Below are positions 22,720 to 63,509 of a DNA stretch of 64,000 nt, piece after piece; within the stretch, counting starts at the first letter, position 1, and every line of letters begins with the position of its first letter. The notes beneath the pieces were generated by a model that was not told where the DNA came from, did not search any database, and worked only from the letters and a program-made list of their open reading frames with translations. The stretch comes from Lingula anatina. Taxonomy: Eukaryota > Animalia > Brachiopoda. The stretch lies in contig CM120647.1 in assembly GCA_051362555.1 (NCBI GenBank), positions 62,001 to 126,000 of the forward strand, given 5' to 3'. A program made the position numbers and the translations under genes.

Positions 22720-23325
22720 GAACTCTCTGTTCCTGTACCAGGTGAAAAAGAATTGATGAGATTTCTAGGTATGGCAGGATTTTACAGAAAATTTTGCCCA
22801 AATTTTTCCTCTGTTGTTAGTCCACTTACTAACCTCTTAAAAAAGAGGGTGATATTTAATTGGACAAAGGACTGTGATGAGTCCTTCAGGAAAATTAAGG
22901 CAATCCTTATGAGTAATCCAGTTTTGTCAGCTCCAGATTTTGAGAGGCAATTTAAACTTGCTGTTGATGCTAGTGATGTAGGAATAGGAGCTGCTTTATT
23001 CCAGGAAAATGATGACAATGTAGATAGAGTTGTTTCTTACTTTTCAAAGAAACTTACAAAATGTCAGAAAAACTATTCTACTATTGAGAAAGAATGTCTT
23101 GCTTTGTTGTTAGCTTTACAACACTTTGATGTGTATTTGAATGTTACTTTACATCCTATTCTTGTCTACACAGACCATAATCCACTCACATTTTTGCACA
23201 AAATGTCAAATAAGAATCAGAGACTGACAAGGTGGAGTTTGTTGTTACAAGAGTATGATATTATTATTAAACATATTAAGGGCAAAGACAATGTCATTGC
23301 AGATGCCCTTTCAAGAGTGTCATAA
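22720..23325 (+). mobile_element. Ty3/Gypsy pol fragment (RT thumb/connection + RNase H)
   Basis: LMRFLGMAGFYRKFCPNFS, FKLAVDASDVGIGA, NYSTIEKECLA, VYTDHNPL, HIKGKDNVIADALSR*. Confidence 0.92.
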
Positions 23326-28681: not shown

Positions 28682-28741
<60 letters not shown>

Positions 28742-28870
28742 GATGTTTCTATACCAGGAGTATCTAGTCCTGTTAGCTGCCTGATGTTGGTAGTGCCCGA
28801 TACCCATTACGGTAAGAATGTTCCAGTCATCCTTGGTACAAATGTCTTAGATTTGTTGATGAACAGGACC
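27287..28870 (+). mobile_element. Decayed Gypsy gag (PNMA-like capsid + CCHC zinc knuckle) and protease remnant
   Basis: PKIAIFSGD...YDAWNYEV...FYSAKQRDGE; CYRCKQVGHVAIGC knuckle; degenerate protease region with VILGTNVL; several stops; (TA)n(GA)n at 28682-28740. Confidence 0.8.
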
Positions 28871-28889
28871 GCGTCGGTGGATTTAAGTA

Positions 28890-31872
28890 GTTCCCATCTC
28901 AAGAAATGTGTAATCAACCGATCGGACCGCACGTTAACTGACAGTGAGACACGTCTCTTAGTGAAAGGGTTAAACTTCTCCGTAGCACCTAAGACTTTAC
29001 CCGTGGAAGACATCATCATGCATACCTAGGGATGTTATAAGACCGTGGCGATATGCTGATCACTGAAGCCTGTCCATTTCGTCAAGCTTCAGTGAAGATC
29101 GAAGGCAACCTCGAGCCGCTGCCCAAAAATATCTCTCTTCACTCGACATTTCTGCGTAGCATCTCTCGGAAAACTTGGATTTAACCTCGATGTAATCTAG
29201 AATCCCACGACTACTTCTTGGTTAAATCAGTCGAGGTCTCTTAAATGCTTAAAGCCGACGACAGTGATCATGTGACATTCTTGGCATCAAGAGAATAGTA
29301 CCTTTACTTGCGGTTTGTACCTACCAGTTGACAAATTAAAAATCTTTCACGCTCTTAAAAAATTAACATAAACTTTTCACATTTAACAATTATTCTTTAT
29401 AATTTTATTACACTAAGTCATATCATATGGGTATGATTTGAAAACGGGAATTAGTTTACATTTAAGCCACGCGTGCATACAAATTATTTGTAAATCTATA
29501 ACATTTTAACGAGGGTTGTGTGATTTACCTTTTCTTTTTAAGCTGTTCATTCTTCCTCTTTATCAGACGTATCGGTAAAAATCAAATCTATTCCCCCTTT
29601 GAACTTGTAATTACATGTAGCACGTGAATGCTCTGAAAACCAGCACATGTATATTCCGAAACCGCCTCGTAGTAAAAGATGTCACGAAAACGCAGAATTA
29701 TTACTCCTTTGGACTTGAAATAAACCTCCGTTTGATTTTGAGTATATTCCGTAACCGCCTCGTCGTCAGAAATAACAATAAAACTAGAATTATTGCTCAC
29801 GTGAACTTGTAATAAACATCCGTCTGACTTTGACTATACTCCGAAACTGCCTCCTCGTCAGAAATATCACCAAAGAGTACATTTCTTTCTCCTTCGCACT
29901 TGTGAAATATTAGTTTGACTATATTCTGGTCCGACGCTCCTTGTTTATCAGAAATGTCACTAAAGAGTAGAGGTTTTGCCTTGGGACCTTTTTTCCGCAG
30001 CAGTCCCAGGTAGGTGTGGTTCGGCTGAGACGCGCATGGTCAATGTCGATGGTTGATTCAATACTTTTCAAGCCAGTTGAACGTCCACGACAAGTATTTA
30101 GCAAAAATTGATCAAATTGGTCAGACATTACATAAGAATTTGGCGGGAGGTGACCAGCGCACGTGGACGAGTTAATTCCATATAACATCTGTATAGCGTG
30201 ATATTCGGTCACTTTATTCGGTTTTAGGGGTGGTTTAGGGTGAAATGACTATATTTGTTCTCGGTATGTATGTCAAACTATCTAGATCTCAATAAGCTGA
30301 ACTATACCCTACTGCAGAAACACCACCTAAGCTGTACGGTCTTCCTAAGATTCACAAAGAGGGCACACCCTTAAGACCTATAGTGTCAAGTATTGGATCT
30401 ATCACTTACCAGACAGCAAAGTTCCTAGCCAAGATCCTATACCCATTGGTAGGAAAATCATGCCACCATGTAATGAACTCTAAGGACTTTGTGGATAAAG
30501 AGAAGGGTATCATTCTGGGACCACAGGAAGCTCCAGTGTCATATGATGTGTGTGCACTATCCACTGGTGTACCGTTGGAAGATGCTTATAAAGTTCCAAA
30601 CTTGCACAAGATCCCACCCTCAAAGAACGTACTAATCTATCAGTAGAGGACATCACAGAACTATTAGACATTGTATTGAACACCACATAATTTATCTATA
30701 AGTGTGAATTCCATAAGCAGAAACATGGAGCAGCTATGGGCAGTCCAATCAGTCCGATCGTGGCCAATCTGTATATGGAGAACATTGAGGAAGCCGCACT
30801 GGGATCCATGCCCAATCCTCTACGTCTTTGGTTGAGATATGTAGACGACACGTTCACCATCTGCTACAGAGACCACATAACTGCTATCACTGACTTCATC
30901 AACAGCCAGGACCGTAACATCAGGTTCACTAGAGAGCTGGAGGAAAACAATTTTATTGCTTTCCTGGACTCATGAATCACACGTGAAAACGACGGCCACC
31001 TGAGTCTGAAAGTCTACAGGAAGGCCACACATACCAACCAATACTTAAACTTCCAGTCGAATCACTAACGGTTTTTTTTTCTGACTGTATCTGTTGGCTC
31101 ACAGTTGGTTATTGCTGTCTTGTCCTGACGAGGTTTTGGCTTTAAAGCCCAAGATGGGTAACCGCACATCATGAGAGCTTCATCAAGTGTCTTGTTCTCC
31201 AATGACTTGTCTTCCTCATTAGTCACGATCGTGTTGCACCTGTGTTTTAGAGTTCTTACTACCCCCAGTTTCTGATGTAGTGGGTGTTGCGACTGGAAAG
31301 GAATTTCAGAGAAAGTGGGGAGGATCTACAAAAAAACTCAGTATTAACACAGCTTTTAGACCCCAGTGCACATTGAAACAACACCTAGTGGCACCAAAGG
31401 ACAAAAACCCCCAAGAACAACGTTGTGGGACGATATACAGGATCAATTGCCATGACTGTCATTCCTCTTACATTGGTGAGACAGGTAGACAGCTGAAGAC
31501 CAGGGTCAGTGAACACAATCAGTGACTGTAGGCAATACCAGCTCTGCCATCTCTGGACAGCTGAAGACCAGGGTCAGTGAACACAATCAGTGACTGTAGG
31601 CAATACCAGCTCTGCCATCTCTGAACATGTAACAGACACCGGCCACAGTATCGACTGGAATTCAACCAAGATCCTTGAATCTGAGTCATCCGCCATCCCG
31701 CGAAAAATACGAAAGGCTATCAACATCAGCCGTCACCAGCCACCCGTGAATAGGGACGGGGGGATGATCTACCTGACATTTATAAAAGGGTCCTGGCCGC
31801 TATACCACATAGCGGTCAGTGAGTGTGAACAACTACTCACATCAGTCTGATGAAGGCCTTCGACCAGGTTGA
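28890..31872 (+). mobile_element. Penelope-like retroelement (RT + GIY-YIG), disrupted by an insertion, an internal inversion and a tandem duplication
   Basis: VINRSDRTLT...KGLNFSVAP; LYGLPKIHK..PLRPIVS; MGSPISP; WLRYVDDTF; CGTIYRINCHDCHSSYIGETGR; truncated hammerhead core CTGATGA at 31847. Confidence 0.88.
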
Positions 31873-32039: not shown

Positions 32040-33180
32040 AAGAAAATTTTAAAAAATCAAAACAGATAACAACGTGTGCAGCCTCTTCTAGCTGCAACCA
32101 GAGCCCTCACTCGGCGAGGCATTCCTGCACAGAGGTTTCTGAGACTATGATCCGGTATTGCGTTCCACGCATTAATCAGAGCTTGTCTAAGCTGGTGCCG
32201 ATTTGTAGGCTGGACCGTTAAGCTCTTGATTCTGCTAGTGATTTCTGCCCACAGGTTTTCTATTGAATTCATGTCAGGGGAATTTCGTCGGCAAAGGCAA
32301 CTGGTTTACCTCTGGTTTTGCAGAAAAGCAGTTATTTCATGGGCACGGTGTGGTCTGGCATTGTCATCTTGCAGGATAAAGTTGTCCTGGAAGCGCCTTC
32401 TTGTAAATGGCAGGCATTTTCTCAAATGTCCCTGTATTTCATCTGGTTGAGGTTTCCATCAATTGCCACCAAAAGTGTTTGGGCTCCAGCGTGGAAACCG
32501 GCCCATGCACAGATACTGTCGATCACCGCCTCAAGTCACTGTAGGGTGACACAAGCCTCGTGCAGTACCTCGTCTGGAAGCCCACGCACGAAGATCCAGC
32601 CATCGCGGTGGTGGAACTCAAACCTTGCCTTCTCTGTGAAAAATCTACATGAACCCAGTACTGTGGCTGGAACCGCAAATGGTGTCTATCCCACCATAGA
32701 CGCAGACGTTGGTGTTGCTCTGATAATAGAGGTAACCAGCTTAAAGTAGCCTTGCTAGGGTTCTAGAAACACGCCTTTGAATGGTAATTTGCCACTCATT
32801 TTGTAGAGCAAGAGTTGTGATTTCCGGTTGTTGCGACATAACCGCAGAAGCAAACGGTCTTCCCTTCTGGTGGTGACTTTCGGACGTCCTGGCCGTGGTC
32901 TCTGTGTTGGTTTTCCAGTCTGGGCGTGTTTCTGTAAGACATTAGAAACTGCTCCCTGGGACACATTCAGCTGTCCGGCAATAGCAGTTTCCTTCTGTCC
33001 ATTCTGGCATAATGCAACAATATTATGGCAAGTTGCTGCCGTTAGTTCACGTACCATAAGGTCAGCTAAAAGTCTGCAAAATATCAAACTCTTCTGAAGC
33101 TTCTGAACGATTTCGTTGAGACTAAATCTGTATTAACAGAAAGGTTAACAGAAGACGTAGTCTGCCCTGATGAAATTAAA
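32040..33180 (-). mobile_element. Decayed Tc1 transposase
   Basis: IAGQLNVSQGAVS..RPRPGRPKVTT; QDDNARPHRA; DMNSIENLW..MPRRVRALVAARRG. Confidence 0.85.
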
Positions 33181-34622: not shown

Positions 34623-37315
34623 CTAAATGTTTTTATAGTCGGTGAAATGAAATGAAGGCCCAACATTTGGGCCTTTATTAGGATCCCCGTTTTCGTATAA
34701 TGGAGTCCGTGCTAGTACCTGTCCCTGTAAAAGCAAGGCATGCATTAAACCTATGCAATCAATAATTTTTTTAGGCTTACCACTTAAACCTTGCTGGATA
34801 CAATGTATGAGACTTGTATACATTCTGCTAAAAACGTTAGTTAAAGTAAATGCTCTTGGTCGAACCCTATGCCCCTCTGGGTATGGCTGAGTTGCAAGTG
34901 ACCAAACCCCTTTTGGGTCAAAAGGTATTGACTGTCCATTATATTCATAGTGAGTGGCGCAATCTACCGATTCTTCCTTTTCTGACTGGTACAGATTAGA
35001 ATTACACGATTTTGTGACTTTTCGATGCTGTGTTCCAGGCGGGATTTCACTACAAGGTCCTGTTACACGTATCTCTCTCCCCTTGACAATTTGAGAAAAT
35101 TTGAAATAATGAGACAGATCTTTTTCTGCTGTCAAAGGCATGCACACATTGCTTCCTTCTCCTTGTTCTGTAATCATATCTATAGCCTTGATGGCTGTCG
35201 TTATGTTATAGATAGGAAATGGCTTTAAAGTTGTCGTCTTTCCATACCACATTGTTTCGTCTATTTGTTCAGACGGATTCCCCAAAAATATATCACCTTG
35301 TTTGGCAAGATTAATTAAAAGAAATTTTATTCTGTTATAAAAGGTCGGTATGCTGTTAGAATTGTTTCTGGAAAAACAGGAACGATCAATCTTAAATTGA
35401 TCTCTGGTGCAACTGTCAGCCGGAAGACTGTATCGTAATGCAGATTCAAATGGAAATATCGATTGTTTTTCATTACACTCAGTGGATAGAATCCTTTCTG
35501 GTTTTTCTATTTCCAAGAAAACAGATTCAATGTATTCTTTTGAAACACTCCGTAAAGAAATGAGCAAGTCCGGTCTTACACCACCGGGAAGTCTGGTGGG
35601 ATACGTAGGAAGAGAATTTTGGTTTGCCAGTACAGGGTCACCGCCAACAGCATTTAATATATTAGCTACCATTGTCATGTGTAGCATTTCTTGTACCAGA
35701 ACTGATCGTATGGTTTCCGCAATGTAAATGTTTGTTCCCTCTTTGATAGATATAAGTGCAGTCAAATAAGGAGGGATTGTGGTAAATTCTAGTAAAAGCG
35801 CCTGCTGGAGAAGTCGGCGGAGTTCTTCAACGGTATCAATAGAACCTAAAACTGGTTTTTCCAACCATTTGTTAAGCATCTCTACTTTACGCGGAGACAA
35901 ATCTCGTGTCACCGGCATGTAATGAGGGTGATCAAACGGTAGATTGAGTGTCCACCTAATCTTTTCTTTGTTGTGTATAACACTTTCATAATCTGTTAAA
36001 TGCACAAAACTATTCATAGCGGGGTAGAACTTACTGTATTGTTCGAAAATGGGAAGCACGTGTTGATACCAAGTCGGAACCTGGGGGATGACGTATTCTT
36101 TGAATATTTTTACAGCCAAAAACGACGTGGCAAAATGTGAATGTCTTTGTGTGTCTGTGAACTTAATAAACAGAAGAAAAAGTTGGGCATCTTGAAGTTC
36201 TATTCTACGGTGATATCGACCATTGACGACTGGGTCTTTGGTGCTGATTTTGATATGTGCTTTACCATCCGTGTCTGTCTTTACTGGTTGGTAAAACTTG
36301 AGTGCGGACTTTGGGTAACTAAAGCCACCGCTGCAAGGACCACAAATGTGATAGGAACAGGTACTTCTATTCCCAAAGTGTAAACTAATCTCTATACCCT
36401 CTACTGGATGACCAAACTGACTTGCAAACACGTCAAACCGCCAAGATTCATCAGGACTTTTCATGTAGGAATTGTTATACATCGCACCCACATTGATACC
36501 ATTCGTCAGCTCCATGAGAACTATTGTGCATATAGGTTTTCCTTTTACATAATTTAATTTGAACATAGATAAAGGGGCATATTCTATGTTTTGCTTGAAT
36601 GTATTTGACACGTTCAACGATAGCACACCTGCAGTATTATGGTATAGACCGGGTTCGCCATACTTAACCTCGACTGTGTCTGGTAAGTCCGAAATATCAC
36701 AATTAGACCCAATCCTATTGTCTGGTTTTGCTGAAATTCCTACATATATCCTACCGATGTCGGTTTCATTATAAAAGCCTTCTTCTGTTATCCGAAGGCT
36801 ATTTCCTATATCTATAGTTAGCAGTTGGCGGTTTTTGTCAAAGACAAACGGAATATGACAGAAAGGGAGTCCAAGACATTCTTCGTCTTTAGCCCTCATC
36901 ATTCTGGTAAATCTAGTGAACGGTATAGAATCTTTAGGATGGTGCTCCCCTATTGTCCCAACCAAACGTCCAGACAAAAACTGCTCACTATAATTTTCAG
37001 TATCATACATATCAAGATTGAACTTTACTGACAATGAACGCGGCAAATTATTACTAATCTCTTGTATAAAACGGGAATTATATGGGGCAGTGAACCACTC
37101 AACATCTGTTAAAACTGATTTTACTTGCACTGCAAGAGACCTTGCAAACATAACTGACGTTTCTGGGCACTTCAACCATCCTTGCTGTGTTGGCGTTGGC
37201 ACCAATTTTCCTCGGAAAACATTAGGTAACATCAAAGTCATACCATATATGGATGGGAAAGTATCACACATTGTATATATATCTACCATTTTAGCCGGCG
37301 CAGCTGCATTCCAAT
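34623..37315 (-). CDS. VioB-like gene exon 4 (2693 nt, includes ferritin-like domain)
   Basis: Acceptor CTTCTTTTGTAG|AT TGG; the long ORF of the track minus its first 9-10 codons. Confidence 0.92.
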
Positions 37316-40300
37316 CTACAAAAAGAAGATATGCTTCTTGCAAGACTGATTTGCTTCAAACTTACAGTGCCTTTATTCCTTAAAACTTATATGTGTTTGC
37401 ATTTACATCAGCCAAAGTAAAAAGAAGGTAAGCATTATACTTTTTAACACTGTACATATTCTGATAAAAAATCGGACTTTTTACATACTTTGCTAAATAT
37501 TTCAAATTTCAGATTTAACATGATTCAATAGAATGATATCAATATAAACATGTTATTCACATTGGCAATGTTTAAAGAGGACAACGATATCAATTACATT
37601 TTTTTAATTCAGTTTTCACCTGCATTTTCCTACCTTCAAATATTTGACCAATAACAGAATCACCTTCCTTGACACACGTTCTATCCGAATAACATACACT
37701 GGTAACAAATGTATCATAAAACATGAAGTTTCCAGAACCCTGAAAACAACAAATTCTACATTTCTGAATCACCATACATGCCTATATTTCAGCATGACTC
37801 TAGAAAAGCACTCAGAGAGCGCAGACCTCCGCCGAGGCAGCAAAGTCTCCATCCAATGCCCTTTCACCCCTAAATGTTCGATAATTTTGATTATTGTTTG
37901 ATAATTGATCCAGATCACCACCAAAAACTAAACATCTCTTTCTTGGTCTACTTCTGACAGTTCCTGAAAATTTCATCAAAATCGGTCCATAACTTTTTGA
38001 GTTATCTTGATGACAGACAAACAAACAAACAGAGAAACAGGGGTGAAAACATAACCTCCTTGGCGGAGGTAACAACAGTTTCATCGTTAAGATGATAAGT
38101 GTTTTTTGCATGGGTTAATTAATAATTTGGACAGGTGTACGTAGTCGTATATAGTGTCATATTGAAATATTGTGTTTAATTTGCCCTTTGTTACATGGCA
38201 AATACGCAAATTAAGACAATATATCTAGCTAATGTTTGCAGGCTTCTGCGTATAGTCTATGTTTTCTCGTTTTCGTGATTGTTTTGGTCTGTCTAATTTG
38301 CTGACGTATGGAAATGCCATTCTCGGACAAAATCAGTTGGCAAGCTGTATTAAACAATTATTGCGTTCTACATAACGTGCGGCACCTTTCAATCTGCATT
38401 AAAGGGGCATACAAACCGAGGGAGGGTGCTACCATAGTTGTTGAGATGATATAAGAGTAGAGTCTAAAATTGTTTATCTTAAATAATCATTACCATTAGA
38501 TGTATATATTATTCGTCAAAACGCGATTTTAACTTCGTTTTTTGTCTGTTCTTCGCGTTCAGTTTTACGCTCTGCTTTCTTCTAAAACGGTTTGAGCGCA
38601 CAATTCTTTCACTGCGCGCGCATCTTATACTACTAATACTATCAGGACTTTCTAATCAGCCCGGAAGCAACTGGCCCATATGACCATTATTTTCCCTATT
38701 ATTAGACGTGTCCTCGTTTTCAAAATGTACCTACCGCTCTAAGAAAATTATGGCATTAGAAGACGGCATGGAGAGGGGTAAGAATAACACTTGTTTATAC
38801 GTTGACTTTTAGAGTTTTACGTTAATAAACTGTGCAGAACGATGCAGAATATGTTTTACTTAAATTTTATACACCTAAGGAATATTCATGTATCTGACTT
38901 CAGCGAGTATTATCTGACTTCACTAGGTTGTATCAAAATGGCGTCACATAAATCTCCGACGTAAACACGCTTTTTGGAATAAAGACAAATGCAGCTTAAG
39001 GGATTATTTTTCTTTTAGATAGGTTGAGATTCATTTTCGAACATGTAAAATTTTTGGGATGGCACCAAACCTGTAACTTGTAAATTTTCAATATTCCCAA
39101 CAAGGTGTACATTTAGTGTGACGATCAGTGTCGAGTGACGCACTGATAACAATATTGGTCTCATATCTTGAATTTATGTCAGAATTAAATAGGGCCTACA
39201 TAACACTTGTTTTCTCGTGTTATTTCTGTGATTTGATTAAATTCGATGAAAGGCTTTGTAAATTGACCATGTGCTTGGTCCTGCACATGTTTGACGTACA
39301 TGTACGTACCGGTGTAACGTGACAGAGAGTCCACCATAACAGAGAGTCCGCTTCCTATTCATTTGTACATTTGTACTCGCCCTAGATTTTGACCCACTTA
39401 GGTCAGACTAACCCTAACCATTATAACTATAGGGAGGGCCCTCAGTTTCGTAACACCGGGATATGTATGCGCTCTCGTATGTGTGCAGGGGGATGGGGGG
39501 GTCTGTATTAACCTAAATACAGGGGCATGGATTAGATTTATTAACCATTTTTATACTCTCGTTGATTGAAATGACTTCATTGTCATACATTACTATTATT
39601 ACATTTATTTCAGTTCTTGTGTGCATGTGTGTGTAAATTTCCCCTGTGTGTTATTTTCAATCTTTAGACAAGTAGAATATATTCATAGTTGGAATATTAT
39701 ATGTTATTATTATTATTTTTAAAATTTTTACTAGGCTTAAATGAAGACCACATGAATGGAACCAGGATATGAATCTATTTGCCATGCCTTTATCTACAAC
39801 CCTCATGACAGTAGCCCCCATCAATTCCAAATGCTTTGCAACATAGAGCACCATGACACAACCTCTGGCATGCAATTAATTAAAGATATTCTTGACCTAT
39901 GCTGATGCTTATACTTATTGTTATTGTATCAATACAAGGTAGTTTAACCACTCAAAATGGTTTCAGTAGGTATGTACAGTTTAAAATACGTATATATATA
40001 ATAATAAACAACCGTATAAAGAAATGAATTTAAGGCACTTGGACAAAAATATACTGTGTCACTTCAGATGCAACAAAGATGGACTAGAATGTGACTAATA
40101 AGCAAGTTTTTGGAAGTTTTGATAATATATTTGTTAAATTGAAGAGTTACCTTTCTATTAAAAGAAATATCTTATGAACTGCAATGTGAATAAGTACTGA
40201 TATATATACTAATCACTATATGCTGTGAAAAAAAATTTTGATAAAATAAATATATTTGCATTTTACTCTTAGTAACAGTGTATTGATATTTGCTCTTGGG

Positions 40301-43300
40301 TTGAATGTTTTAGTTTCTTTGGTATACAAGTGTCTCAAATGTAAATAAAAATATTAAAACAATAAGAATTAATGAAATATAATACTTCGCTTTATTCTGT
40401 CGTTGCTGTTAGCTTTTCATCTTTTAATAAAATTAATTGATATACCCTACAAGTTAGCCTAATCAAAAATACCTATTTGCCTTAGAAAAATATGTAACAT
40501 TTATTAATATGAGCATCCTAACAATTTTTTCCCTGTTTCTTCCAACTCCAGGTTAGTATCAGCATGTCAATACATTTACAAAGCCTGGCTACTGATTGTG
40601 TGCTAGCGTACAAAAAAAGCCAAAACGAGGCTGGATAGCCCTTTATTGCCTCTGTTGACATGTCATTGCCTTCTCTATTATAATCCTACTTTTATTCGTG
40701 CAAGTTTTGTGTCGTACTTCTTTCTGTTTTTTATCCCTCTTATGTGCTAAAAAGTTTTTTGTTCGCATCATTCGCTGCATTGACTTGTTAAATTAGGGCA
40801 TTCACGTGGTACGCCTGCTCACTCGGCCTTCACCAATGGCAAATAGGTTGGGCAGTTTTCTCACACTTCTTCCCGCCCGTTCATTCATATGCTAGTATCT
40901 GAGTCATGTGACACGCAAGGTATGTTACAATCGCAGGATGTAAATGCGATTTTTAGTTCTTTATTTCAACATACTGGGTGCGTGTTAGACGTTAAATACA
41001 AATAGATCTTGTTTATTCGGAGTGTTTGATGCTGTGAAAGTGCTGTTTTTGTGAATAATTGTCAACTTAAACCGCTTTGTATGTCCGTTTAACGTTGTCA
41101 TATAACACCTTCATCCTCGGTGCAGGGGAACAGAGTTTGGTTTTTATAGTGATTCGGTGTACGAGATGTTTGAATACCGAATCGTAAAAACTTTTTTCTG
41201 GATTCAATTTTGCCAGCTTTGCACTTGGTTAATCCAAGGTGCCACACTTGCTCAGCATATTCTCGGGTAGGTTTTACATTAGACGTACAGATTTTCAGAA
41301 ATCCATGAGACGAAAAATCCGCTCTTTTTAAAAATCTTATGAAATGTATCCTCTGACAAACTTTTGTGTAAATGCGATTGATATGGATTTCCCAATTTAG
41401 ATCTTGACTTATATTGAGTCCCAAGAATACGCAAGAATTCACTTTGTCTATTGTTTTACCATCAATTGTTATTTGCTGGAGTGGATGGCTAGAGTTTGAG
41501 AAATCGAACCGTATCTCTTTTGTTTTCTAGGAATTTAGGAACATCTTGTTTTCTTTTGACCAACGGTTTCTGCTGCGGCAGAATAATGCGAAATACGATG
41601 ATTAATCGTTTGAGATACATTCCATTACGCTGCTAGTTCGTCACTATAACGCTGCATATACGCTATACATGCGCTACCTACAGGTATTATCAAATTACCG
41701 CATTTGTAGCGTAGCTTAATCGTCGTGTGAGTGGCGTATCCTTAGCATGTGTGTAACGACTGGGTAACGTACAACTCAAATGCATGCATACACTGAACAT
41801 TTTTTAACATGCTCAAAATTCTTCTTTTTTTTCCAGCTGCATAACTAAGAGAATACCAACGGCTGCATGGGTATGCAAAACGAATACGGCGTGTTAACAA
41901 TTAACGAACCCACTGCGTTTGTTTGCCTATTTCATACATGTTGCAAACAAATGCAAAAGATAGCTTTCACACCAATTGCCGTCTCAGAAGACAAGATCTA
42001 TAAGTCAGTTTGGAAAAATAAGAACATACTGAAATACTGGGTAAGGCCGAGGATTGCAAGACGCACCTTGTATAACGATTACGCATGATTAATAAAAAGA
42101 TCTTGAACTTGAAAATCAGGAAAGCTTAATTTCCTTCAAAAGAATTAAAACCATCCATGATTTACGAACTTTTGAACAGACCACATCCACGACGAACGAA
42201 ATAGCATACAAACTTTCCCAAACAGGACACGCATATAACCTGTAAACATCCGCACTTCTCAACAAAAACAAACATAATAATAGTGATGATAATAATAATA
42301 ATTAACTTTATTTAAAGAGGGTAAAACATGGTAAATGCATACACTTATCTTACACATGGTCCTCTAGAGGGTTAAAATGAGATATTGTGTTAATGAATTT
42401 TCCTTTGTTTTTTTAAACAATATTTTAAAAGTATCCAAGTCTTCAGAGTGTAGGCAGTTTCATATTTTAATCGAGGTCTATATTGGGCCTTTAGTTTATA
42501 TGCCTTTATGTCTGACAACTGGTAAATAGAAATTTCCCTTATTATTTGATCGGGTGATTCTGCCTGTAGTGTCTATGGTTGTAGTTCCCAGTGAGTCTTT
42601 GATGTATTTAGGTGAGAGTTCACTTAAAGATTTAAAAACTAATGTGGCTTTCTTAAATTCTATCCGTTCATAGATTGTTTGCCATTTTAGTTTCTTCAAT
42701 AGTTAATTTGTTGGATATTATTTGGCTTCTTTTTCTAGGATTTCGAGAATGCTTCTTGCTCCACGTTTCTAAAGTTTGTATATTTTTTCTAGTTTTGCAC
42801 AGCTGCTCCATATGATGGAGCAGTAATCCAGATGTGGTAGTATATGTGCATTATAAAACAGTGCCCTTGTTTCCAGTGTTAAGTATCGTTTTAGTTTGGA
42901 TAGAAGGGAAAGTTTACTGTTAATTCTTTTTTCAAGTTTATGCACATAGTCATTCCAGTTAAGATTTTCATTAATATATACACCTTAAAGTTTTTCTGTT
43001 TGTACATTATCTAAAATGTCCCTGTTAAACATTACCTTTAAACAAAAGATATTAGACTCCTGCAGAACGTGTAAGGAATTATTTTTTATAATGAAACACT
43101 TTAGATCACTACACATATGATTTCGTATTGTATTTACAGAGGAAACGAATAGGCCCTACCTTTCATCTAATATAATTGACTTTATGTAATTGTCTTTAGA
43201 AAATTATTCTTAATATGTACCATAAACATTAATTCCTGTTATAAGGGAACGTATATTATCATTTTTTTCTTTAAAAAGCCTCCGACGGGATGATGGGAAG

Positions 43301-45580
43301 TGCTATAGAAGTTATGTTTCGGATAGGACCATAAGTTCTGGTCAGCTGAATATACGGAAAAAATGATTGGATATTTTATATTGCTTTTTTAATGTTAGAT
43401 GCAAATATTTATTAGCCTTCTTTTTTAAACAAATAATAAATATCAAGCAATTGGATTATATTTTTATTTTAAATGCTTTTCACCGGGTATTCAAATAATA
43501 TCTAGAGCCAGTTAATTTCTGACTTTCAATCTTTCGGATCTGAAGCTGTAACCAGTTCTAATAAAAATTGACTGTGTATTAAGTTAGACAAAAACAAACA
43601 ATCAATTTATAACTCGGTAAAGACATGCTTCTCTACTGATGTATCTTTTTTCAAATACTTTTATGTCACTAACAGCTGTCATTATCGTTCAATTGCACCA
43701 TACCAAATTAACAAACAATACAGTACAATGTCCAAAGTGTTCAAAATGCCTAACATTTCGGTAGATTGCCTGAAATTTAATTTATCCTAGGTCAGTTACA
43801 ACCATTCGTGGTCCACGTATGCGATGCACATGTACAAGAGTGTAATTTTGGAGGTGGACCCCTCTCAGACGACAGGAAAGGGAAACCCGGTGACGATCCT
43901 AAAATTGTAGAGGTACTTTGGCCTCGTTATTTCCATTTGACTCTTTTGAACTCTTCCACCAAAAACAGTCATCACACCTGAGATAATTTCGTTAAAGCCA
44001 GTCAAGGTCCTAGCGTTATGTAACCTTCCTACCCGGAGCTCAGGGCAACGGTAACAAACATTGGTGTCCCTGTATCTAGTTTTATTGATAGACCGTTTAT
44101 ATCGGACATTGCCATGATCACTTACGCTTACTAATGGATTTACGGCACGCAGAAATCAGCACGATTCCCTATAAAATCTAGGCCTCTGAAGGAGAGAGAG
44201 AGAGACCCCGGGAGATCGTCACGACTGTCCATGCCTGCGTGCCAGCCTGTAGCCCGTATGAGTGGAATAAAGATTACCTGAAACACAATTCTATCTGTTG
44301 TGTATTCAAGCCGCCGTTCTCTCATAAATTAGTAACCCACCTAGGTTACATATAGCTGACATTTGATCACCTGGTAAGAGGCTGTAACTTGACTTATTTT
44401 GCCCACACTACACTCAAACTATCAGTCTTGTTCACTGACCACTCTGCCAGAAGTGCGCCATTATTCAGTTAAAGATTTAAAGGTCGTTTAGTTCTGACCA
44501 CCCGTGCCAACTCGTGAAAGATGGTGGTATATGTAAAGTGTGTTGAAATACAACGTCCTGATGCTTGAACTGACATACAAACCGCGCAAGTTAAAATAAA
44601 ACAATTAAAGACGAGAAAATATCGAGTTAAGTACACATGTGAAAGGGCTATTATCAAACATCTAAATCAGTGGCCATGATTTATTAACCAGAACTAGAAA
44701 TGGGAGATCGGGATCCATAAAATGCCAGGGGATTGTAACCTGTGAACAGTGCCAGGTAGAGGCAAGGTTACTCTTGATCAACATTACGAAGTTTTATGTA
44801 TAGGCTTTCACATATCGTTTCCATCCATTCGATTAGATAATTCGACAGAGGAATTATTTCTTTGCAAGGTTGTCGAAATAAAAAGCATATACCTCGCCAA
44901 TGAAGTATTAATAAAGCATAAATGTTGCCTTAAAGCAAATCTGTAAACAGTGTATAGGAACTTACTGTACCTCGGGATTGAAACCTTGGACATCGGGGTG
45001 AAGTCGAGGCCCTTGGTTGATGGTGGTGTTAAAATTTTTTAACATATTATTGGCCGTCATTGGATCGGCATAGAATCTACCCGCAAAATGTAGCCGAGGG
45101 AACCCGAGGTAAGAATGTTTGGATCCTGTAAAACATCCCAATTTAAAATATTAAATATTTACCTAACTACATTCAATCAGGTATCGACATGAGATAAACA
45201 AAAGAAACATAGATAAAACTTACGAATATGTATGTATAAACTGCATTGACTGCATTTTGCAATGTAATGAAAGAGAAATACCGAACATGGTGCTGTTGTC
45301 CTAACAGACTTTATCATAGGTTAAAATTTTTAAAGGGGGTGTAGCTAACATATATCACTGTTTTACATGTTATATGTGGCTAAGTAGTTTTCTGATGAAC
45401 AATGTCTCTTTTCCGCAACTCACAACTGCTTACTATTGAAAATTCAAATTTTGAAAACCTGACATTTAATACTACAGGGAAATGCTTACTGGCATGTTCG
45501 TCGTCGGTGTTAATGAGAGTTGCGGACATCAACCATAAACTGTAAATGACCTGCAGTGCGACAAAACTGCTTCCAGCCAT
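34623..45580 (-). CDS. Secreted VioB/RebD/StaD-like protein (imino-arylpyruvate dimer / chromopyrrolic acid synthase family, ferritin-like domain), 4 exons, 1014 aa
   Basis: join(complement) 45580-45490, 45125-44971, 37739-37634, 37315-34623; all introns GT-AG with matching phases 1,0,1; total 3045 nt with no internal stop. Family motifs: SYLGFPRLHFAGRFYADPMTANN, FNPEGSGNF, PAKMVD, YSKFYPAM, HYMPVTRDLS, LQQALLLEFTTIPPYLTA...EMLH, EQGEG, SHYFKF. AATAAA signals downstream (~34560, ~34505). Confidence 0.9.
37634..37739 (-). CDS. VioB-like gene exon 3 (GSGNFMFYDTFVTSVCYSDRTCVKEGDSVIGQIFE)
   Basis: TTGTTGTTTTCAG| acceptor, GAAG|GTAGGA donor; phase 0 to 1. Confidence 0.85.
37797..38072. mobile_element. 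Non-autonomous Helentron/DINE-like (HINE) element in intron 2
   Basis: Subterminal inverted repeat CCTCCGCCGAGG / CCTTGGCGGAGG, terminal hairpin ACCTCCTTGGCGGAGGT, (CAAA/GACA)n microsatellite. Confidence 0.6.
41040..41570 (-). mobile_element. L2/CR1-group LINE RT C-terminal remnant
   Basis: FLGLNISQDLNWEIHI...EYAEQVWH. Confidence 0.75.
42290..43040 (-). mobile_element. L2/Crack-type LINE 3' remnant
   Basis: GVYINENLNW...FYNAHILPHLDYCSIIW...LKWQTIYER; AATAAAG + (TTA)n tail. Confidence 0.75.
43841..44350 (+). mobile_element. Possible solo LTR
   Basis: TGTAA...TTACA ends, GC-richer than flanks, AATAAA near 44265; no clear target duplication. Confidence 0.3.
44971..45125 (-). CDS. VioB-like gene exon 2 (SKHSYLGFPRLHFAGRFYADPMTANN...GFNPE)
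   Basis: GTTTTACAG| acceptor, GAG|GTACAG donor; encodes the conserved N-terminal PR-x-HF-x-G motif of the family; absent from the ORF track. Confidence 0.88.
45490..45580 (-). CDS. VioB-like gene exon 1, signal-peptide-like (MAGSSFVALQVIYSLWLMSATLINTDDEHA)
   Basis: GTCATGG start, hydrophobic core, GCCA|GTAAGC phase-1 donor matching the exon 2 phase. Confidence 0.72.
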
Positions 45581-46175: not shown

Positions 46176-47307
46176 CACTGAGAATAAAATCGGAGTCCAA
46201 GTGACTCCAAACTTGGAGTTCAGCAGTGGTGCCTAAAATAACTCCCAATTGGAGTCAAGTTGACTCCGATGGAGTAACGCCATTCCAGACCCCACAGGAG
46301 AGTCACAGTTGACTCCATTCACACATCCCTTCATCCCTTGATTTACCTCTACAAAAGAGTCACCATGACACCATATTAAAGAATTTTTAACTCCTTGGCA
46401 CATTATGAAAAAAGAACATCAACAGTGCCAAGCGGGGAGACAGCAGGTACCGTTTATAAAGGACTGGTATGTCCCCGGACGGGTTAGAACCCACGTCCTC
46501 CCGCACCGGTGGCGGTCACTCTAACCACAAGGCCATCTGGTCGCATGTGGTATTGCGGCAACAATAAAATAGTTTGTAAATCTGGTAATAAACAGCATAA
46601 CATATGTATACCACAAATGTACCAGTGAGTGAGCATACCTCCCCAGAGACATGCATTCAAACATACCACATGGAAACAAAGCTTGCTGACCTGTATACCA
46701 ACATATCACATTGGCTCTGCCAATATTATGTTTTGTATTTTTCTTAGTCGTACTATATCACTATTTAATATAATTCATACTTATTTATAAGTGCAATCCT
46801 ATTGTACATTTTCATCTACCCACGTAGATGCATACGATACAATGAATAAATGCATATATACGTAAAGAGCGTGGGCAACTGAAAGCTGGGGCCAGTAATA
46901 AGTGCACGAGTTCTGCATGCAGAAACACACAGAAAAGAACTTGTTCATGCATAAAACCCACTATGGCCAATAAAATAATGTTTATACTGACAAAGGGTGA
47001 TGAAAACTATTCTCTCCACGCCGTCTGCTCACTGCCATCACAAGCACTGAAACGAGCCCTACTGTCCAGCAAGCGAAAAGAGTCGGTAAAAGGGGTCAGC
47101 CAGACACTGGCCCCCAGTAATTTGACTCTGATTTTAGAGTCAGATTGACTCCATGAGAGCCAGGGGGTGGCTGACTCTGATAAGAGAGTCTAAAGACTCT
47201 GGTAGTGGGGTAATTTGACCCTTATATAGGAGTTAAATTAACTCTATGCGGGTCAAGTGGTGCTGGACTCTGACTAGAGTGTCAAATGACAAATTTTATT
47301 CTCAGTC
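46176..47307. mobile_element. CACT-terminated (EnSpm/CACTA-like) non-autonomous element
   Basis: CACTGAGAATAAAAT ... ATTTTATTCTCAGT TIRs; many subterminal GACTC/GAGTC repeats at both ends. Confidence 0.6.
46395..46540 (-). mobile_element. tRNA-derived SINE fragment
   Basis: A box TGGCCTTGTGGTTAGAG, B box GGGTTCTAACCC, followed by a core-like ...CATACCA...GGTACCTGCTG...GCTTGGCAC. Confidence 0.7.
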
Positions 47308-53422: not shown

Positions 53423-56400
53423 ATGGGATTGTTTGGGAGTTCTTCGCCATTTGATCAGGATGTTGGTGAGTTCGATTTTTAGGTGTTTATCTTTTTGTTG
53501 TACCTGAACGACTTCAAACTCTTATCAGTCCGTTAGTATGCAAGAATCCTAGGTAAATTCATGTCTCTCCAACAAAAATATTCGGCGATATCCTAACTGT
53601 GACTCATCGTCATACGAAAAACAGTGAATAGGCTAATTTTATTCCAGAAATAGATCTTAGGCCTTCCCCACTTGATCTAAGAACCACACAAGGCTTTTGC
53701 GCTTTGGACACTGAGACAGGCGCTTGCGACTTAAAGCTGCAGTCAGTGAAATCGTAGCCCAATCACGCTCAGTTGTCACCTTGATCAGTCGATGATATAT
53801 AAACCCGCACTTAGAGAGTTTGGTGTACACTGCAGTAACTAAAGAGAGCAAAGTGTTCATACACAGGAAGTCACACCATCAGAGCATAACTGGAATTAAA
53901 TTGAAGTCTCTGCATTACCACTTTTATATTTTACTTACTGTACCTTTTTTATCTACAGTATGTGCTAATTAGTGAAAAATAAAGGTAGTACTTTGAAATC
54001 ACACATGCAGGCTTACAAAGGCAGGGTATTGTAATGGATTTTAGGTACTTAAGTAATGATTGTAGCAATATTTATCACTCTCTTTGAAACAAAAAATTTT
54101 GTAAAACAGCTTCATTTTTCTCTCATCCCAAGAGCAATGTCAGGCTGCTTGCCACAGGTCATTGGCTGTGTAAAGACCTGGGAACAATTCTTACCCTGGT
54201 GTGGTAGTTAAAAGAATGATCTGGTCATAGATGGGGGACAGCTGGTATTTACCTTGTCTCTATTCAGGGTGGGATCCTGTTGTCTGATGTGTACTGCTTC
54301 TTTGACTTTCCCCCTGGTCCATTGTTGCTCTCTGGCTAGGGCTGTGGTGGCCTGTTTTTATACAATATTCACCTATGTCTATGTGGTAGTCTAGGTTGCA
54401 GTGTTCCTGTAATCACTGTCTCAGTGTCTGCTAAGTTTCTGCTGTGTATTTGTATGTTGGACCAGAGTCACATCATATGGTAGATGGGGCCACATACTTA
54501 GTCTTTGGTTGGCTTAGTTTTGGAGTGCAACAAGGCTGAGAGCAGGGTGTTGGTTGATTTATGGAACATATGGATGCCATGTGACCTGTTGGTCCTCCAT
54601 AATTTCTCAGACATACCTATTGACAAAATAGAACTTTGTGATATGAAGAAGTTGAACTGTTTGTTTGTGTTCCAGAGAAGGCCACCAGTGAAATGAACAC
54701 CACTGAAGACTGGGCTCTCATTATGGAGATTTGTGACAGAGTTGGCCGGGAACAGAATGGGTAAGAATAAAGGTTATAGTGTGTGTGTCAATGTGTGTGT
54801 GGGTGGGTGGTGATGGGGGACAGATTTAGACACAAGTTGTTGTTTAGTAGGGAGGAGAAATAGTCAAAAGTTAGAGTGCATGTGTGGAGGAGGAGAAGAA
54901 GGAGAGAGAGAATTAGATACAAGTTAGATTGTGTCAGTGTTGGAGGAGGGCTTGTGTGGGGGAGAGGAGACCATCAGGGAATTGGCAGCATCACTTTTTA
55001 AGTGGGGTTCGCCATATTTATTTGGCAGATCAGTTAGTCTGTGGATCATGTGTTTTGAGTGTACTCTGTGAGGGTAGCCTGAATTAAAGGTACATACGAA
55101 GCGAGCATCGGTGGAGCGTGGATTCCCAGTAACACATGTAAACCACTTCTACTAGATTCTTATATAACTCAAATAAATTCGATCAGTTAGCCTGTGGATC
55201 ATGTGTTTTGAATGCGTGATGTGTGAGGGTGGTTGGGGGTAAGAATTATATACAAGCTAATATCAAGGGGTACTTTAGGGTGGGGTCTGTGAATGCAGAT
55301 GTCATTCTTGTATTAATTTAAAAGTGTAAATAAAATACTCAACTCAAAAATTGCTGTAATAAGATATTAGTATAGATGTGTATCAGCATTATGGTTATTT
55401 TTTCCAGACCCAAAGATTGTCTTAGAAGTATAATGAAGAGGATTAAACACCAGATTCCACAAGTCTCAATGCAAGCTATCACTGTAAGTGGCTGCAATGC
55501 GAGACTCTCGCTCTTTTCAAACTGTGTCAAGATGGCTGACAACCCAGGTTGAACAGGGGACAATTAATATGATTATTTTTGCAAAATTGATTGAGGCCAT
55601 TTATCTTTAGCTCCTAATTTTGTGGCTCAAACCTTTTTAGTGGTCTGCATCAAGATCCTGGCTAAACCCCTGTCAATGTCTTAGAGACCATTCCCACAGA
55701 TATTTAGATCGATCTATTCCCCTGGGGAGTATCACTAGATATTGTTGTCAGCTTAACTGGCTCTAATGTCTGTTCCGCCTACTAAAAGCTATAAGGGGGT
55801 AATTAACTTTCATGCGTGCTTGGCTCCCAGAAGCTGACAGCAATTTAGCGTGAACCCCCAGGAAGTTAGGTCTGAACCCCCAGGGAGTTAGGTCCATCCA
55901 GATGACTCGTTCTAAATATATTTGGGAACCTAGACTTTGACCTCTTGAACTGAATATGTTGAAAGTAATTTTACCCAAAACTTTTGTCAATTTAGTTTCT
56001 TTATGTTAACATGTATTTTTTTGTTACTCACTTACCTAGAAACATTTTAGGCATAATTTTTATAAAATATCATAAATATTACTGACACATTGAAAATCTT
56101 TTCTTTTCTTTTCAGTTTTACAGTAAGTTTGATATATTTTGACAAGAGATTCAGAGAATATAAATTGTTTCTGTTTTGATTAATTGCTGGTCTTTTTGAA
56201 TTGATAGTAACATTTCATTGTGTGAAGCATATGTTCATCCAGAAGAAAAAACAAATTAATATGTAGTTGTCTGACTTTGCTTCTTTCTTATTCTCAGCTC
56301 TTAGATTCTTGTGTCAGCAACTGTGGACATACGTTTCACCTGGAGGTGGCCTCTCGTGATTTCAGCTCAGAGGTCAAGGCTGTCCTCAGTGGCAAGGTAC

Positions 56401-59400
56401 AGTGATCTGTGGGGTAAACTTCCTGTCTACACTTGGGCCATTTGTATCAGTGTTTCCACATGACAGCACTGCTTGTTTTAACATTTCAGATATGCTGGCA
56501 GCTTTGGTGGAGTGTGCAATGTTTCATTTCAGAAGCCATGTGTAAGATGGGTTGGCAACAAAATTGTTTCAGTTCTTATTCTGGGAGTAAACCTGGATTG
56601 CAACCTGCCCCCCCCCCCCCCCCCCCCCCACCTACCAAGTGCAACTCTCCCCCCCCCCCCATTGTGTTGACCACTGACCCTCAGTAGATGCAGGGTTGCA
56701 ATCCTGTGTTGACTACCTGGTGTCAGGGCTAAACATGGTTGTTGTCTAATCTCCACTGTACCCACAGTGACAGTGCCACACTGGCTGCTAGCTGGTTATC
56801 CTGGAAATTAAGAAACATGTATATATACAGTAAACTATTTCCTAAGATCCAGCTGCCATCTAGGGTACTGCCAGTGTGTGTTTACCAGAACTGTCATGTC
56901 TGCATGTTGATATTGCCACTGTAATATTGCCACTGTCACATGGTCAACTCAAAGGTTCTTCTTCTTCATCATAACTGGACATAGCTGGACACTACCACGT
57001 CTCTGGACAGGAAAGGCTGCATATAGCAACACAGTTCACTGTGGAAATATGTTTGAAACTGGTCAAATATATTGTGTGATATAGTCCACCACCTCTATCA
57101 AATTTTGGGTTTTGATTCTCCGTGCTGATTTCTGGGAGGTGAAGCAATGTGTATTGAAAAAGGGAACACATGAAATTTTAACATAAAGGTCATAAAAGTG
57201 CAGGCCTCTAAAACTTTGATTTATTTTCAATCATAACATCTGAAGTAATAACAAGTATTAAAAACCACAGCAGAGAAGCCCCTTCTAATTAATAACAATG
57301 TGTTCTAGTGTAAAGTGTCTTACACAACAAAGCCGTCTGTATGACCTTGTTTTGTAATGAGGCACAAAAGTTTGTATCCTGTGTTATGTCCAGTTATGGT
57401 GCTTCATATGATGGGATGGATCTGTAGTGGCCATGATGACTCGGGTATTTTTTACTGTTGCTTGAACTCACTGGTCACGTTGCATGTTACTTTAGCTCCT
57501 GGACGCGTGTGTCAGCAACTGTGGGAAGGTATTTCACCAGCAAGTCGCCAGCAAGGACTTCACTGACGATATCAAACCTTGTATAATGGGAAAGGTTAGA
57601 ATACAAGCTTACTTACTTTACTGACATCTACTGGCAGGAGAGGAAGTTAACTGGCTTAAACAATATTATACATGGTTGTACTCACAAACAGAGAGAGAGG
57701 GGGGTATTTTTCTGAAAAGAATTGTATCACTTGTAAAAAAGTTTTGATAAAAGAGTTTCTAAGTGAAGAAATGATCTTTGTGAATATTATGTTTACAAGA
57801 CCCGTGTCCATAGTTAGAATTTGTCTGCATGGCTGTAAATGTACTGTTAAATGTTATCTGAGGCAAACACCACTCCCCAATGTTAATAGGATCAGTAGTC
57901 TACTGGGTGTAAATGTAGTATTAAATGTTATCAGCAACCAGTATGCTGTTAGAAGTTCTGGATTTGAACATCTGAGACAGCTGTGAAGCTCACAAATCTA
58001 CGATAACAACTAATTTCTCTCTTTAGTTTTGGTAACGACACTGGGTTTCATTTTACACAAAACTTTGCTTAGCTAAACAGTACTTAGCAGTCTTTAAAAT
58101 ATTATGTAATGGTTTGTAAGGATTAACTCACTTTAATTTAACTTAACAAAACTGTATAAGAGGGTGAAAACTAGTGGCTGAATTTTGAGATCAGAAAAAA
58201 GAGGTGAGTGGTCTTACAGGATCTCTGTGAAATGCCACTTAGTCATAAAAGACATCTGATCTTAAATTCTGTTATTGAGAATGTTGTCAGTACTTGCATT
58301 GATGTTCTATCTCTGATGATTAGTTTGTCTTTTCAGCAGGCACACCCTAAGGTGGCAGAGAAGCTGAAGGAAATGATTAAAAAGTGGGCAAAAGGAGATT
58401 TTAAAAGTGACCCGTCATTAAGGTAGGGATAACACCACTGGTAGACATATCAACTTATTGTCTTACTGTTGTATACAGCATGTAATTGAAATAATACTAG
58501 GAGATCAGATACTGAAGATTTGTTATGAGAGCCTACTGTAGACAGATAATTATTACTCCTTTATTCACAAATGAATGTTGACTGACCAAAGTGTGTTTTC
58601 TCTTTACAGTTTGATCCCTCAGCTGTACCGCAGTCTGAAGGCAGAGGGCCACAGTTTTACCTCCTCAGATACAGTAAGTCTTCCTTTGCTTGGGATGGAG
58701 GTAGGGGGGGTTGTACCACAGTCTGAAGGCAGAGGGCCATAGTTTTACCTCCTCAGATACAGTAAGTCTTCCTTTACTTGGGATGGAGGGAGGGGGTTGT
58801 ACCACATTCTGAAGGCAGAGGGCCATAGTTTTACCTCCTCAGATACAGTAAGTCTTCCTTTACTTGGGATGGAGGGAGGGGGGTTGTACCACAGTCTGAA
58901 GGCAGAGGGCCACAGTTTTACCTCCTCAGATACAGTAAGTCTTCCTTTGCTTGGGATGGAGGGAGGGGGGTTGTACCACAGTCTGAAGGCAGAGGGCCAT
59001 AGTTTTACCTCCTCAGATACAGTAAGTCTTCCTTTGCTTGGGATGGAGGGAGGGGGTTGTACCACAGTCTGAAGGCAGAGGGCCATAGTTTTACCTCCTC
59101 AGATACAGTAAGTCTTCCTTTGCTTAGGATGGAGGTAGGGGGGTTGTACCACATTCTGAAGGCAGAGGGCCATAGTTTTACCTCCTCAGATACAGTAAGT
59201 CTTCCTTTACTTGGGATGGAGGGAGGGGGGTTGTACCACAGTCTGAAGGCAGAGGGCCATAGTTTTACCTCCTCAGATACAGTAAGTCTTCCTTTGCTTA
59301 GGATGGAGGTAGGGGGGTTGTACCACATTCTGAAGGCAGAGGGCCATAGTTTTACCTCCTCAGATACAGTAAGTCTTCCTTTACTTGGGATGGAGGGAGG

Positions 59401-62194: not shown

Positions 62195-62229
<35 letters not shown>

Positions 62230-63492: not shown

Positions 63493-63509
63493 GTAAGTGA
63501 ACTCTCTTA

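What the first reader, a model, noticed from the sequence alone, without database searches (positions are those of the whole stretch)
45490..45580. Signal-peptide exon grafted onto a cytosolic bacterial-type enzyme: retargeting to the secretory pathway
Seen: a 30-codon exon (MAGSSFVALQVIYSLWLMSATLINTDDEHA) with a hydrophobic core and phase-1 donor splices just ahead of the residue equivalent to the bacterial N-terminus (S-Y-L-G-F-P-R). The body carries about eight N-X-S/T sequons (NTT, NYS, NET, NVS, NNS x2, NRS, NIT) and Cys clusters (CSYHICGPC; ECN...SCTR...SCF; VCM...PCS...SCN...DCA). Bacterial VioB/RebD are cytoplasmic. Inference: a secreted, disulfide-bonded glycoprotein that could pair with secreted L-amino-acid oxidases (known from mollusc ink/mucus/egg defences), which generate imino acids and H2O2. 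This suggests an extracellular two-enzyme chemical-defence, pigment or H2O2-handling system. Speculatively, it could make diarylpyrrole dicarboxylates, the proposed precursors of lamellarin-type marine alkaloids. No oxidase partner is encoded in this window.
Basis: partly seen in the sequence, partly recalled or inferred. Interest (0 to 1): 0.8.

Follow-up and report, generated by a model that had tools for sequence, protein, structure and literature searches.

The report
Ancient secreted animal VioB-like metalloenzyme
A predicted four-exon animal gene encodes a distant relative of the bacterial alkaloid enzymes VioB and StaD, with a likely signal peptide also seen in relatives from sponges to lancelets, so it is likely an old, little-studied, secreted metal-dependent oxidase of marine invertebrates whose substrate is untested.

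Summary
A 91-nt exon (45580-45490, minus strand) joins three further GT-AG exons into an open 1014-aa frame. A Lingula relative (48.7% identical) has a hydrophobic leader of nearly the same length. This is an old trait, not a local graft: 15 of 18 named animal records (8 genera, sponges to lancelets and tunicates) have such a leader, while 48 of 49 bacterial relatives start at the core. Animal-specific conserved cysteines support secretion. The eight sequons equal chance (7.7 expected). The protein is no VioB/RebD member (22 bits against a cut-off of 1250) but is collinear with them. It keeps a predicted two-metal carboxylate site and two invariant methionines, a possible heme site. The proposed amino acid oxidase partnership is not supported: 0 of 80 loci of the nearest bacterial relatives hold a StaO/VioA-type oxidase, against 7 of 7 VioB/StaD controls. 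They sit instead by ebo clusters (15 of 80) or P450 genes (6 of 80). The RNA runs laid gave no verdict on splicing. Verdict: a real, apparently undescribed secreted animal subfamily, likely an oxidative enzyme; the lamellarin link is speculation.

The parts
45490..45580 (-). Exon 1: start codon and predicted signal peptide (30 codons + 1 base, phase-1 donor)
   Evidence: Sequence; open joined frame and hydropathy; chance estimate; Lingula leader of matching length
44971..45125 (-). Exon 2 (155 nt): start of the conserved core (SYLGFPRLHF), equivalent to the bacterial N-terminus
   Evidence: alignment with Lingula, bacterial relatives and VioB
37634..37739 (-). Exon 3 (106 nt): beta strands with the Cys98/Cys104 pair
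34623..37315 (-). Exon 4 (2693 nt): rest of the coding sequence and stop codon
35835..36092 (-). Small helical domain with two invariant methionines (M551, M584) and the MPVTRDLS motif; candidate heme site, unproven
   Evidence: M551, M584, P585, R588 and W533 invariant in 80 of 80 sequences including VioB/StaD; comparison with cytochrome c domains inconclusive
35085..35810 (-). Ferritin-like domain PF12902 with predicted two-metal ligands E627, E660, H663, E837, H853 (also E721, Y634)
   Evidence: Pfam E 7.9e-53; residue survey; model of the Lingula relative matches 3hl1 at Z 26.5-28, rmsd 2.2-2.3 over 254-258 residues

Best explanation
The gene likely encodes a secreted, likely disulfide-bonded, metal-dependent oxidative enzyme of an old marine-invertebrate family that is a distant relative of bacterial VioB/StaD. 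Shown: the open four-exon frame, the hydrophobic leader shared across animal phyla, animal-specific conserved cysteines, and conserved metal-type residues. Inferred: the leader sends it through the ER; the ferritin-like bundle binds two metal ions (likely iron) by E627, E660/H663, E837 and H853; the M551/M584 domain may hold heme b. It would then use O2 or H2O2 to oxidise or couple small aromatic 2-oxo or imino acids or phenolic metabolites, and perhaps break down peroxide, in mucus, body fluid or gut lumen, as part of chemical defence. It need not depend on an L-amino acid oxidase: the nearest bacterial relatives act as accessory enzymes in several kinds of small-molecule gene cluster.
For: Leader: 15 of 18 named animal records have a hydrophobic N-terminal segment (best 12-mer 1.8-3.0; this protein 1.87), covering Lingula, Branchiostoma, Glandiceps, Styela, Ciona, Sanderia, Corticium and Oscarella; 48 of 49 bacterial frames start at the core and the 49th has a TTG start there (names). 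Tunicate members add a TSP1 domain and one lancelet member LDL-receptor repeats, both extracellular modules (extracellular role from established knowledge). Cysteines C323, C380, C956, C971 are kept in 11, 10, 11, 11 of 11 bilaterian-clade proteins against 0, 0, 1, 1 of 42 bacterial-clade proteins; mean Cys 2.42% against 0.67%. Metal-type residues E627, E660, H663, E721, E837, H853 are kept in 11 of 11 bilaterian-clade, 19 of 20 other animal-clade and 7 of 7 VioB/StaD sequences. A family profile hits VioB and StaD-type proteins (E 1e-33 to 1e-46) in three collinear blocks. Model of the Lingula relative: pLDDT 83.7, pTM 0.80. Bacterial context: ebo cluster 15 of 80 loci, P450 6 of 80, aminotransferase-methyltransferase fusion 3 of 80, NRPS-like 3 of 80. 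VioB is a heme b enzyme with catalase activity (PMC9705886, passages).
Against: No member of this family has a tested activity that I found. The ancestry is remote: 22 bits against the VioB model, and 8 of the 11 histidines and all 3 cysteines invariant in 7 VioB/StaD sequences are lost, so heme binding and substrate may differ. The Sanderia member has lost the metal-type residues yet keeps its leader, so a non-enzymatic role is possible. This protein's leader is at the weak end of the animal range and has no basic n-region. The sequon count gives no support. 3 of 18 named animal records lack a leader (one truncated, one alternative Ciona model, one with a long extension). The ebo link is accessory: only 1 of 35 eboE-bearing genomes in one family sample had the full two-part gene.
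Confidence: 0.55

Rival explanations
1. One reading: a secreted VioB/RebD-type dimerase that works with a secreted L-amino acid oxidase to join two imino acids into a diarylpyrrole (lamellarin-type precursor).
For: Collinear homology with VioB/StaD and shared metal-type residues and methionines. Members occur in sponges and tunicates, groups from which such alkaloids are reported (PMC3039461, passages). In 3 of 80 bacterial loci an aminotransferase-methyltransferase and a P450 flank the gene, a layout that could supply aryl-pyruvates (inference).
Against: 0 of 80 loci of the nearest bacterial relatives hold a StaO/VioA-type oxidase (three hits covered only 33-40 profile positions; 57 of the 80 loci are 14 kb or longer), against 7 of 7 controls. 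Most VioB/StaD-specific His and Cys are lost. The family is also present in lancelets and a brachiopod, which the passages of PMC3039461 that I read do not name as sources.
Confidence: 0.15
2. A secreted peroxide- or iron-handling protein: the two-metal bundle acts like a manganese catalase or ferroxidase and the rest of the chain is a scaffold.
For: The bundle matches Dps, bacterioferritin and manganese catalase folds at Z 10-12. Fungal PF12902 genes lie beside lodA/lodB peroxide-producing oxidase genes (PMC4417212, passages), and one plasmid locus has a LodA/GoxA gene about 4.5 kb upstream.
Against: Z 10-13 is common for helical bundles (note). The 600-residue N-terminal part, with invariant residues shared with VioB/StaD, is kept in animals and suggests substrate handling. 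Bacterial neighbours are mostly biosynthetic.
Confidence: 0.2
3. The leader is not used in this species: another first exon is used, or the gene is silent or decaying.
For: An acceptor-like AG lies 14 bases before the ATG and a second donor at 45424. The leader is weak and lacks basic residues.
Against: The frame is open over 1014 codons and four exons; leader length matches Lingula; animal-type cysteines are kept.
Confidence: 0.1

Closest known systems
VioB (TIGR04492) and chromopyrrolic acid synthases RebD/StaD
   Same: Same N-terminal motif, collinear layout, MP-x-T-R motif, ferritin-like domain and metal-type residues.
   Different: About 23% identity in the best block; 22 bits against cut-off 1250; 8 of 11 invariant His and 3 of 3 invariant Cys lost; has a leader, introns and extra Cys; no oxidase neighbour among its nearest bacterial relatives.
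Uncharacterised bacterial family: N-terminal domain plus PF12902, fused (about 900 aa) or split in two genes
   Same: 29-32% identity over nearly the whole length; all core residues kept.
   Different: No leader, few Cys; found beside eboA-F, P450, aminotransferase-methyltransferase or NRPS genes.
Lingula anatina LOC106154185 / LOC106173762 and other uncharacterised invertebrate proteins (Branchiostoma, Glandiceps, Saccoglossus, Styela, Ciona, Sanderia, Corticium, Oscarella)
   Same: 48.7% identity to Lingula; sister to Lingula in both trees; same leader position.
   Different: All are database records without tested function; tunicate members add TSP1.
CC_0557 ferritin-like protein (PDB 3hl1)
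   Same: Only solved relative; matches the C-terminal domain at Z 26.5-28.
   Different: Stand-alone 317-aa domain without the 600-residue N-terminal part.

Membership tests
VioB / RebD / StaD imine dimer synthases | Score above the curated TIGR04492 cut-off (1250 bits) | tested here: not met
   22.1 bits for exon 4; 17.8 for the 716-aa Lingula record. StaD-type proteins reach about 500 bits per block, so it is far below them too.
VioB / RebD / StaD imine dimer synthases | Collinear homology with N-terminal motif, MP-x-T-R domain and PF12902 domain | tested here: met
   Family profile hits VioB in three ordered blocks, E 1e-33 to 1e-36, StaD-type E 1e-43 to 1e-46.
VioB / RebD / StaD imine dimer synthases | His and Cys invariant in VioB/StaD | tested here: not met
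   3 of 11 His and 0 of 3 Cys kept (7 reference sequences).
VioB / RebD / StaD imine dimer synthases | Partner flavin amino acid oxidase gene alongside | tested here: not met
   None in the window; 0 of 80 loci of nearest bacterial relatives; 7 of 7 controls have it. The animal genome outside the window could not be searched.
VioB / RebD / StaD imine dimer synthases | Heme b binding and imine dimerisation activity | not testable with these tools
   No solved VioB/StaD structure turned up; ligand not known to me.
Ferritin-like two-metal carboxylate proteins (PF12902) | Pfam PF12902 above cut-off and four-helix bundle fold | tested here: met
   180 bits against 22.3; Z 26.5-28 to 3hl1.
Ferritin-like two-metal carboxylate proteins (PF12902) | Glu / Glu-x-x-His / Glu / His ligand residues | tested here: met
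   E627, E660, H663, E837, H853 present and conserved. Their role as ligands is inferred from the family pattern; geometry and bound metal were not seen.
Classical secreted proteins | N-terminal hydrophobic segment at the start codon, conserved among relatives | tested here: met
   Hydropathy only.
Classical secreted proteins | SignalP-type prediction with cleavage site; exon 1-2 junction in transcripts | not testable with these tools
   No such predictor on hand; the RNA runs laid gave no verdict.
Class I cytochrome c-like heme domain (for residues 526-611) | Profile or fold likeness; CxxCH motif | tested here: inconclusive
   No CxxCH. Profile comparison with 26 PF07635 domains: probability 9%, 24 columns, equalled by block shuffles; no PDB, Pfam or Atlas hit. 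The domain was not folded alone.

The most novel reading that the evidence does not exclude
Marine invertebrates have carried, since early animal evolution, their own secreted relative of VioB/StaD that makes pyrrole or bis-aryl alkaloids outside the cell, so some alkaloids of sponges, tunicates and hemichordates would be made by the animal rather than by symbionts; the invariant methionine pair would mark the still unsolved heme site of the whole VioB/StaD superfamily.
Probability: 0.12. Interest if true: 0.9.

Novelty: new variant of a known kind. Interest (0 to 1): 0.55.

Why it matters
The VioB/StaD superfamily is known from bacterial alkaloid pathways, and a 2021 review (PMC9705886) says VioB had no structure; my PDB searches found none either. 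A secreted, cysteine-rich animal branch from sponges to lancelets, with about 9 PF12902 genes counted per lancelet species (PMC12373286 supplement rows), is a ready candidate for host-encoded extracellular defence chemistry. It can be tested directly by expression and product analysis. The proteins are in databases as uncharacterised records; my ten paper searches found no description of the animal family. The conserved metal residues and methionine pair give testable predictions for the bacterial enzymes as well.

Tried and rejected
RNA: no RNA holder was listed for the gene. 8 of the 9 runs offered by species label were laid, 6-26% of each read; depth over exon 4 and the exon 1-2 bins was zero, no splice joint appeared, and reads fell only on repeats. 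The laid stretch held no known expressed gene as control, so this is no verdict on expression or splicing. Sequon count as evidence of glycosylation: rejected, chance level. Whole-genome search for paralogues or an oxidase: no genome held. Intron positions in other animals: not obtained; one sponge-clade contig (L117) has a 1036-codon open frame with no in-frame ATG and several AG sites just before S-Y-L-G, which fits an upstream exon, but no such exon was identified in the 929 bases available, and it lacks this gene's introns 2 and 3. Cytochrome-c-like reading of the methionine domain: inconclusive. Complex prediction of that domain with the ferritin-like domain: no answer, alignment not used. 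Fold of residues 33-260: no clear match, but that part was barely tested; residues 265-530 match only common beta-sandwiches at Z under 7. Direction of gene transfer: trees disagree on whether animal members form one clade (split; one clade with support 60.7) and the root branch is very long, so no donor is claimed. The family as the missing thallusin ring-cleavage enzyme: rejected as a general answer (1 of 35 eboE genomes). Earlier findings of the scan: none. Literature: searches; some listed only the top 20-40 of many papers; supplements of the bioRxiv thallusin preprint were not seen and might list this gene.

Full report
The observation. The finding lies on the minus strand. An ATG at 45580 opens 30 codons plus one base and ends at a GTAAGC donor. 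Exon 2 (45125-44971) starts four residues before S-Y-L-G-F-P-R. I located exon 3 (37739-37634) and the acceptor of exon 4 (37315) by homology. The four exons, all GT-AG, give one open frame of 1014 residues. Residues 5-23 are the most hydrophobic 19-mer of the chain. Exons of this kind with a strong donor are expected about 0.02 times in the 365 bases before exon 2. The eight sequons and the cysteine clusters are as listed, but eight sequons is the chance value (mean 7.67 in 5000 shuffles). The RNA runs laid gave no verdict (see Tried and rejected), so splicing is predicted, not shown.

What the body is. Pfam finds only PF12902, ferritin-like. The VioB model gives 22 bits against a cut-off of 1250. 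Real VioB and StaD-type proteins fetched as controls align with about 23% identity in the best block, yet a profile of the family hits them in ordered blocks along the length (E 1e-33 to 1e-46). So it is a distant sister family, not a member. The nearest named protein is from Lingula anatina (48.7%). Next come bacterial proteins of about 900 residues at 29-32%, often split into an N-terminal gene and a ferritin-like gene. A profile search found 2193 cluster representatives at E 1e-30 or better and listed the best 150; I looked up names for 30 proteins.

The leader is old. Named animal records come from sponges (Corticium, Oscarella), a jellyfish (Sanderia), a brachiopod, hemichordates, lancelets and tunicates. 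15 of 18 have a hydrophobic N-terminal segment; some of the 18 are near duplicates, and 8 genera are covered. The three without are a truncated Saccoglossus record, an alternative Ciona model and a lancelet model with a long extension. 48 of 49 bacterial frames start at the core motif, and the last has a TTG start there. This protein's leader (1.87) is at the weak end. Four cysteines are kept in 10-11 of 11 bilaterian-clade proteins and in 0-1 of 42 bacterial-clade proteins; that clade includes unnamed records, and most of the 20 'other animal' sequences are assigned by tree position only. Sequons are above expectation in the other-animal group (212 against 151), near it in the bilaterian clade (93 against 86) and below it in the bacterial clade (152 against 203). 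In an 80-sequence tree the protein is sister to Lingula (1.0) within a bilaterian clade (0.996). A 38-sequence subset keeps the Lingula grouping, gives the bilaterian clade 75 and all animals 60.7. An origin before the split of protostomes and deuterostomes is likely; single origin in animals and direction of transfer are unresolved.

Anatomy. A model of the full-length Lingula relative from 79 sequences is confident (pLDDT 83.7, pTM 0.80): a beta-rich N-terminal part, beta-sandwich-like domains, a small helical domain, and a ferritin-like bundle that matches 3hl1 (Z 26.5-28). A first model of exon 4 from 12 sequences was poorer (64.8). E627, E660, H663, E721, E837, H853 and Y634 are kept across animals, bacteria and VioB/StaD, which fits a two-metal site; Sanderia has lost them. 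Of 11 histidines invariant in 7 VioB/StaD sequences only 3 remain. M551 and M584 are invariant in 80 of 80 sequences. Their setting recalls a cytochrome c domain without CxxCH (my recollection of that fold), but the tests were inconclusive.

Context in bacteria. 15 of 80 lie beside five or six ebo genes, in Betaproteobacteria, Actinomycetota, Bacteroidota, Alpha- and Gammaproteobacteria; several are close strains. Of four annotated plasmid loci read, two have the full ebo set, one has part, one has none. 6 of 80 have a P450 just upstream, 3 of these an aminotransferase-methyltransferase fusion downstream, and 11 a PQQ-type propeller gene. A profile of 7 StaO/VioA-type oxidases found no full match in the 80 loci; the three weak hits covered only the FAD-binding motif, one of them (L029, opposite strand) being a PF01593 member at E 1e-16. 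All 7 control loci have the oxidase next to VioB/StaD, as PMC10851217 describes for indolocarbazole clusters (passages). The ebo link is accessory: 4 of 5 other genomes tested lack eboE, and 1 of 35 eboE genomes in a family sample has the full gene. The thallusin preprint 10.64898/2026.05.21.724671 (passages and section 10) ties ebo to thallusin, notes a missing oxidative step and does not mention ferritin-like or VioB in its main text; PMC5133447 has no such mention either (term search).

How it most likely works. Secretory targeting is well supported (about 0.85). A metal-dependent oxidative activity is likely (about 0.65) from the kept residues, the ancestry and the biosynthetic neighbours. 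The substrate is open.

Novelty. The proteins are in databases as uncharacterised; one lancelet record is auto-named 'iminophenyl-pyruvate dimer synthase domain-containing'. Searches for PF12902, for that name, and for VioB with animal terms returned no description of an animal family (listings and abstract starts only). PMC12373286 lists PF12902 in a supplement table with 9 counts per lancelet species, below its own threshold for enrichment (rows and passages). PMC4595640's supplement has no entry for it (term search). Verdict: a new variant of a known kind, real and testable, interest 0.55.

Noticed in passing
window 53423-63500, + strand: Neighbouring multi-exon gene, divergent from the finding, that reads like STAM (VHS, SH3 and coiled-coil segments; name from my recollection of the sequence pattern, not from a call).
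   Followed up: partly
window 56298-56396 and 57496-57594, + strand: Two 99-nt paralogous exons in the STAM-like gene, both with AG/GT ends and the same phase: likely mutually exclusive exons in the VHS domain.
   Followed up: partly
window 58624-59957: 87-bp tandem repeat, 15.4 copies, 96% alike, that repeats the 3' end of an exon with its GTAAGT donor 15 times; could be real or an assembly artefact.
   Followed up: partly
L001, L003, L004, L006, L036-L039, L044-L046, L059, L070-L072, L105, L106: Bacterial relatives of the gene sit next to eboA-F clusters in five bacterial groups; a candidate tailoring oxidase for a subset of ebo pathways, not mentioned in the main text of two ebo papers searched.
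   Followed up: partly
L028, L031, L032: Actinobacterial three-gene unit: P450, family gene, aminotransferase-methyltransferase fusion; looks like an uncharacterised alkaloid cluster without an amino acid oxidase.
   Followed up: partly
L002, L052, L055, L056, L058, L060, L061, L074, L076, L078, L079: Stand-alone PF12902 gene followed by a PQQ-type propeller, and in most by an MntP-like membrane protein and a ScyD/E-like protein.
   Followed up: no
window 46409-46540: Intergenic repeat upstream of exon 1 with very high, stranded read depth in one RNA run (mean 2734 in its bin); reads run on into unrelated sequence, so they likely come from another copy.
   Followed up: no
window 37800-38072, 39313-39460, 41098-41526, 42499-42984: Repeat and reverse-transcriptase-like fragments inside intron 2 of the gene.
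   Followed up: no
window 15073-15834, 19374-20293, 22642-23325, 27263-29029, 30296-31850, 32057-33132: Decayed transposon and retroelement fragments; the 22642 frame has RT RNase H domains.
   Followed up: no
P0175 (Sanderia malayensis): Family member that keeps its leader but has lost the predicted metal ligands: a possible non-catalytic form.
   Followed up: no
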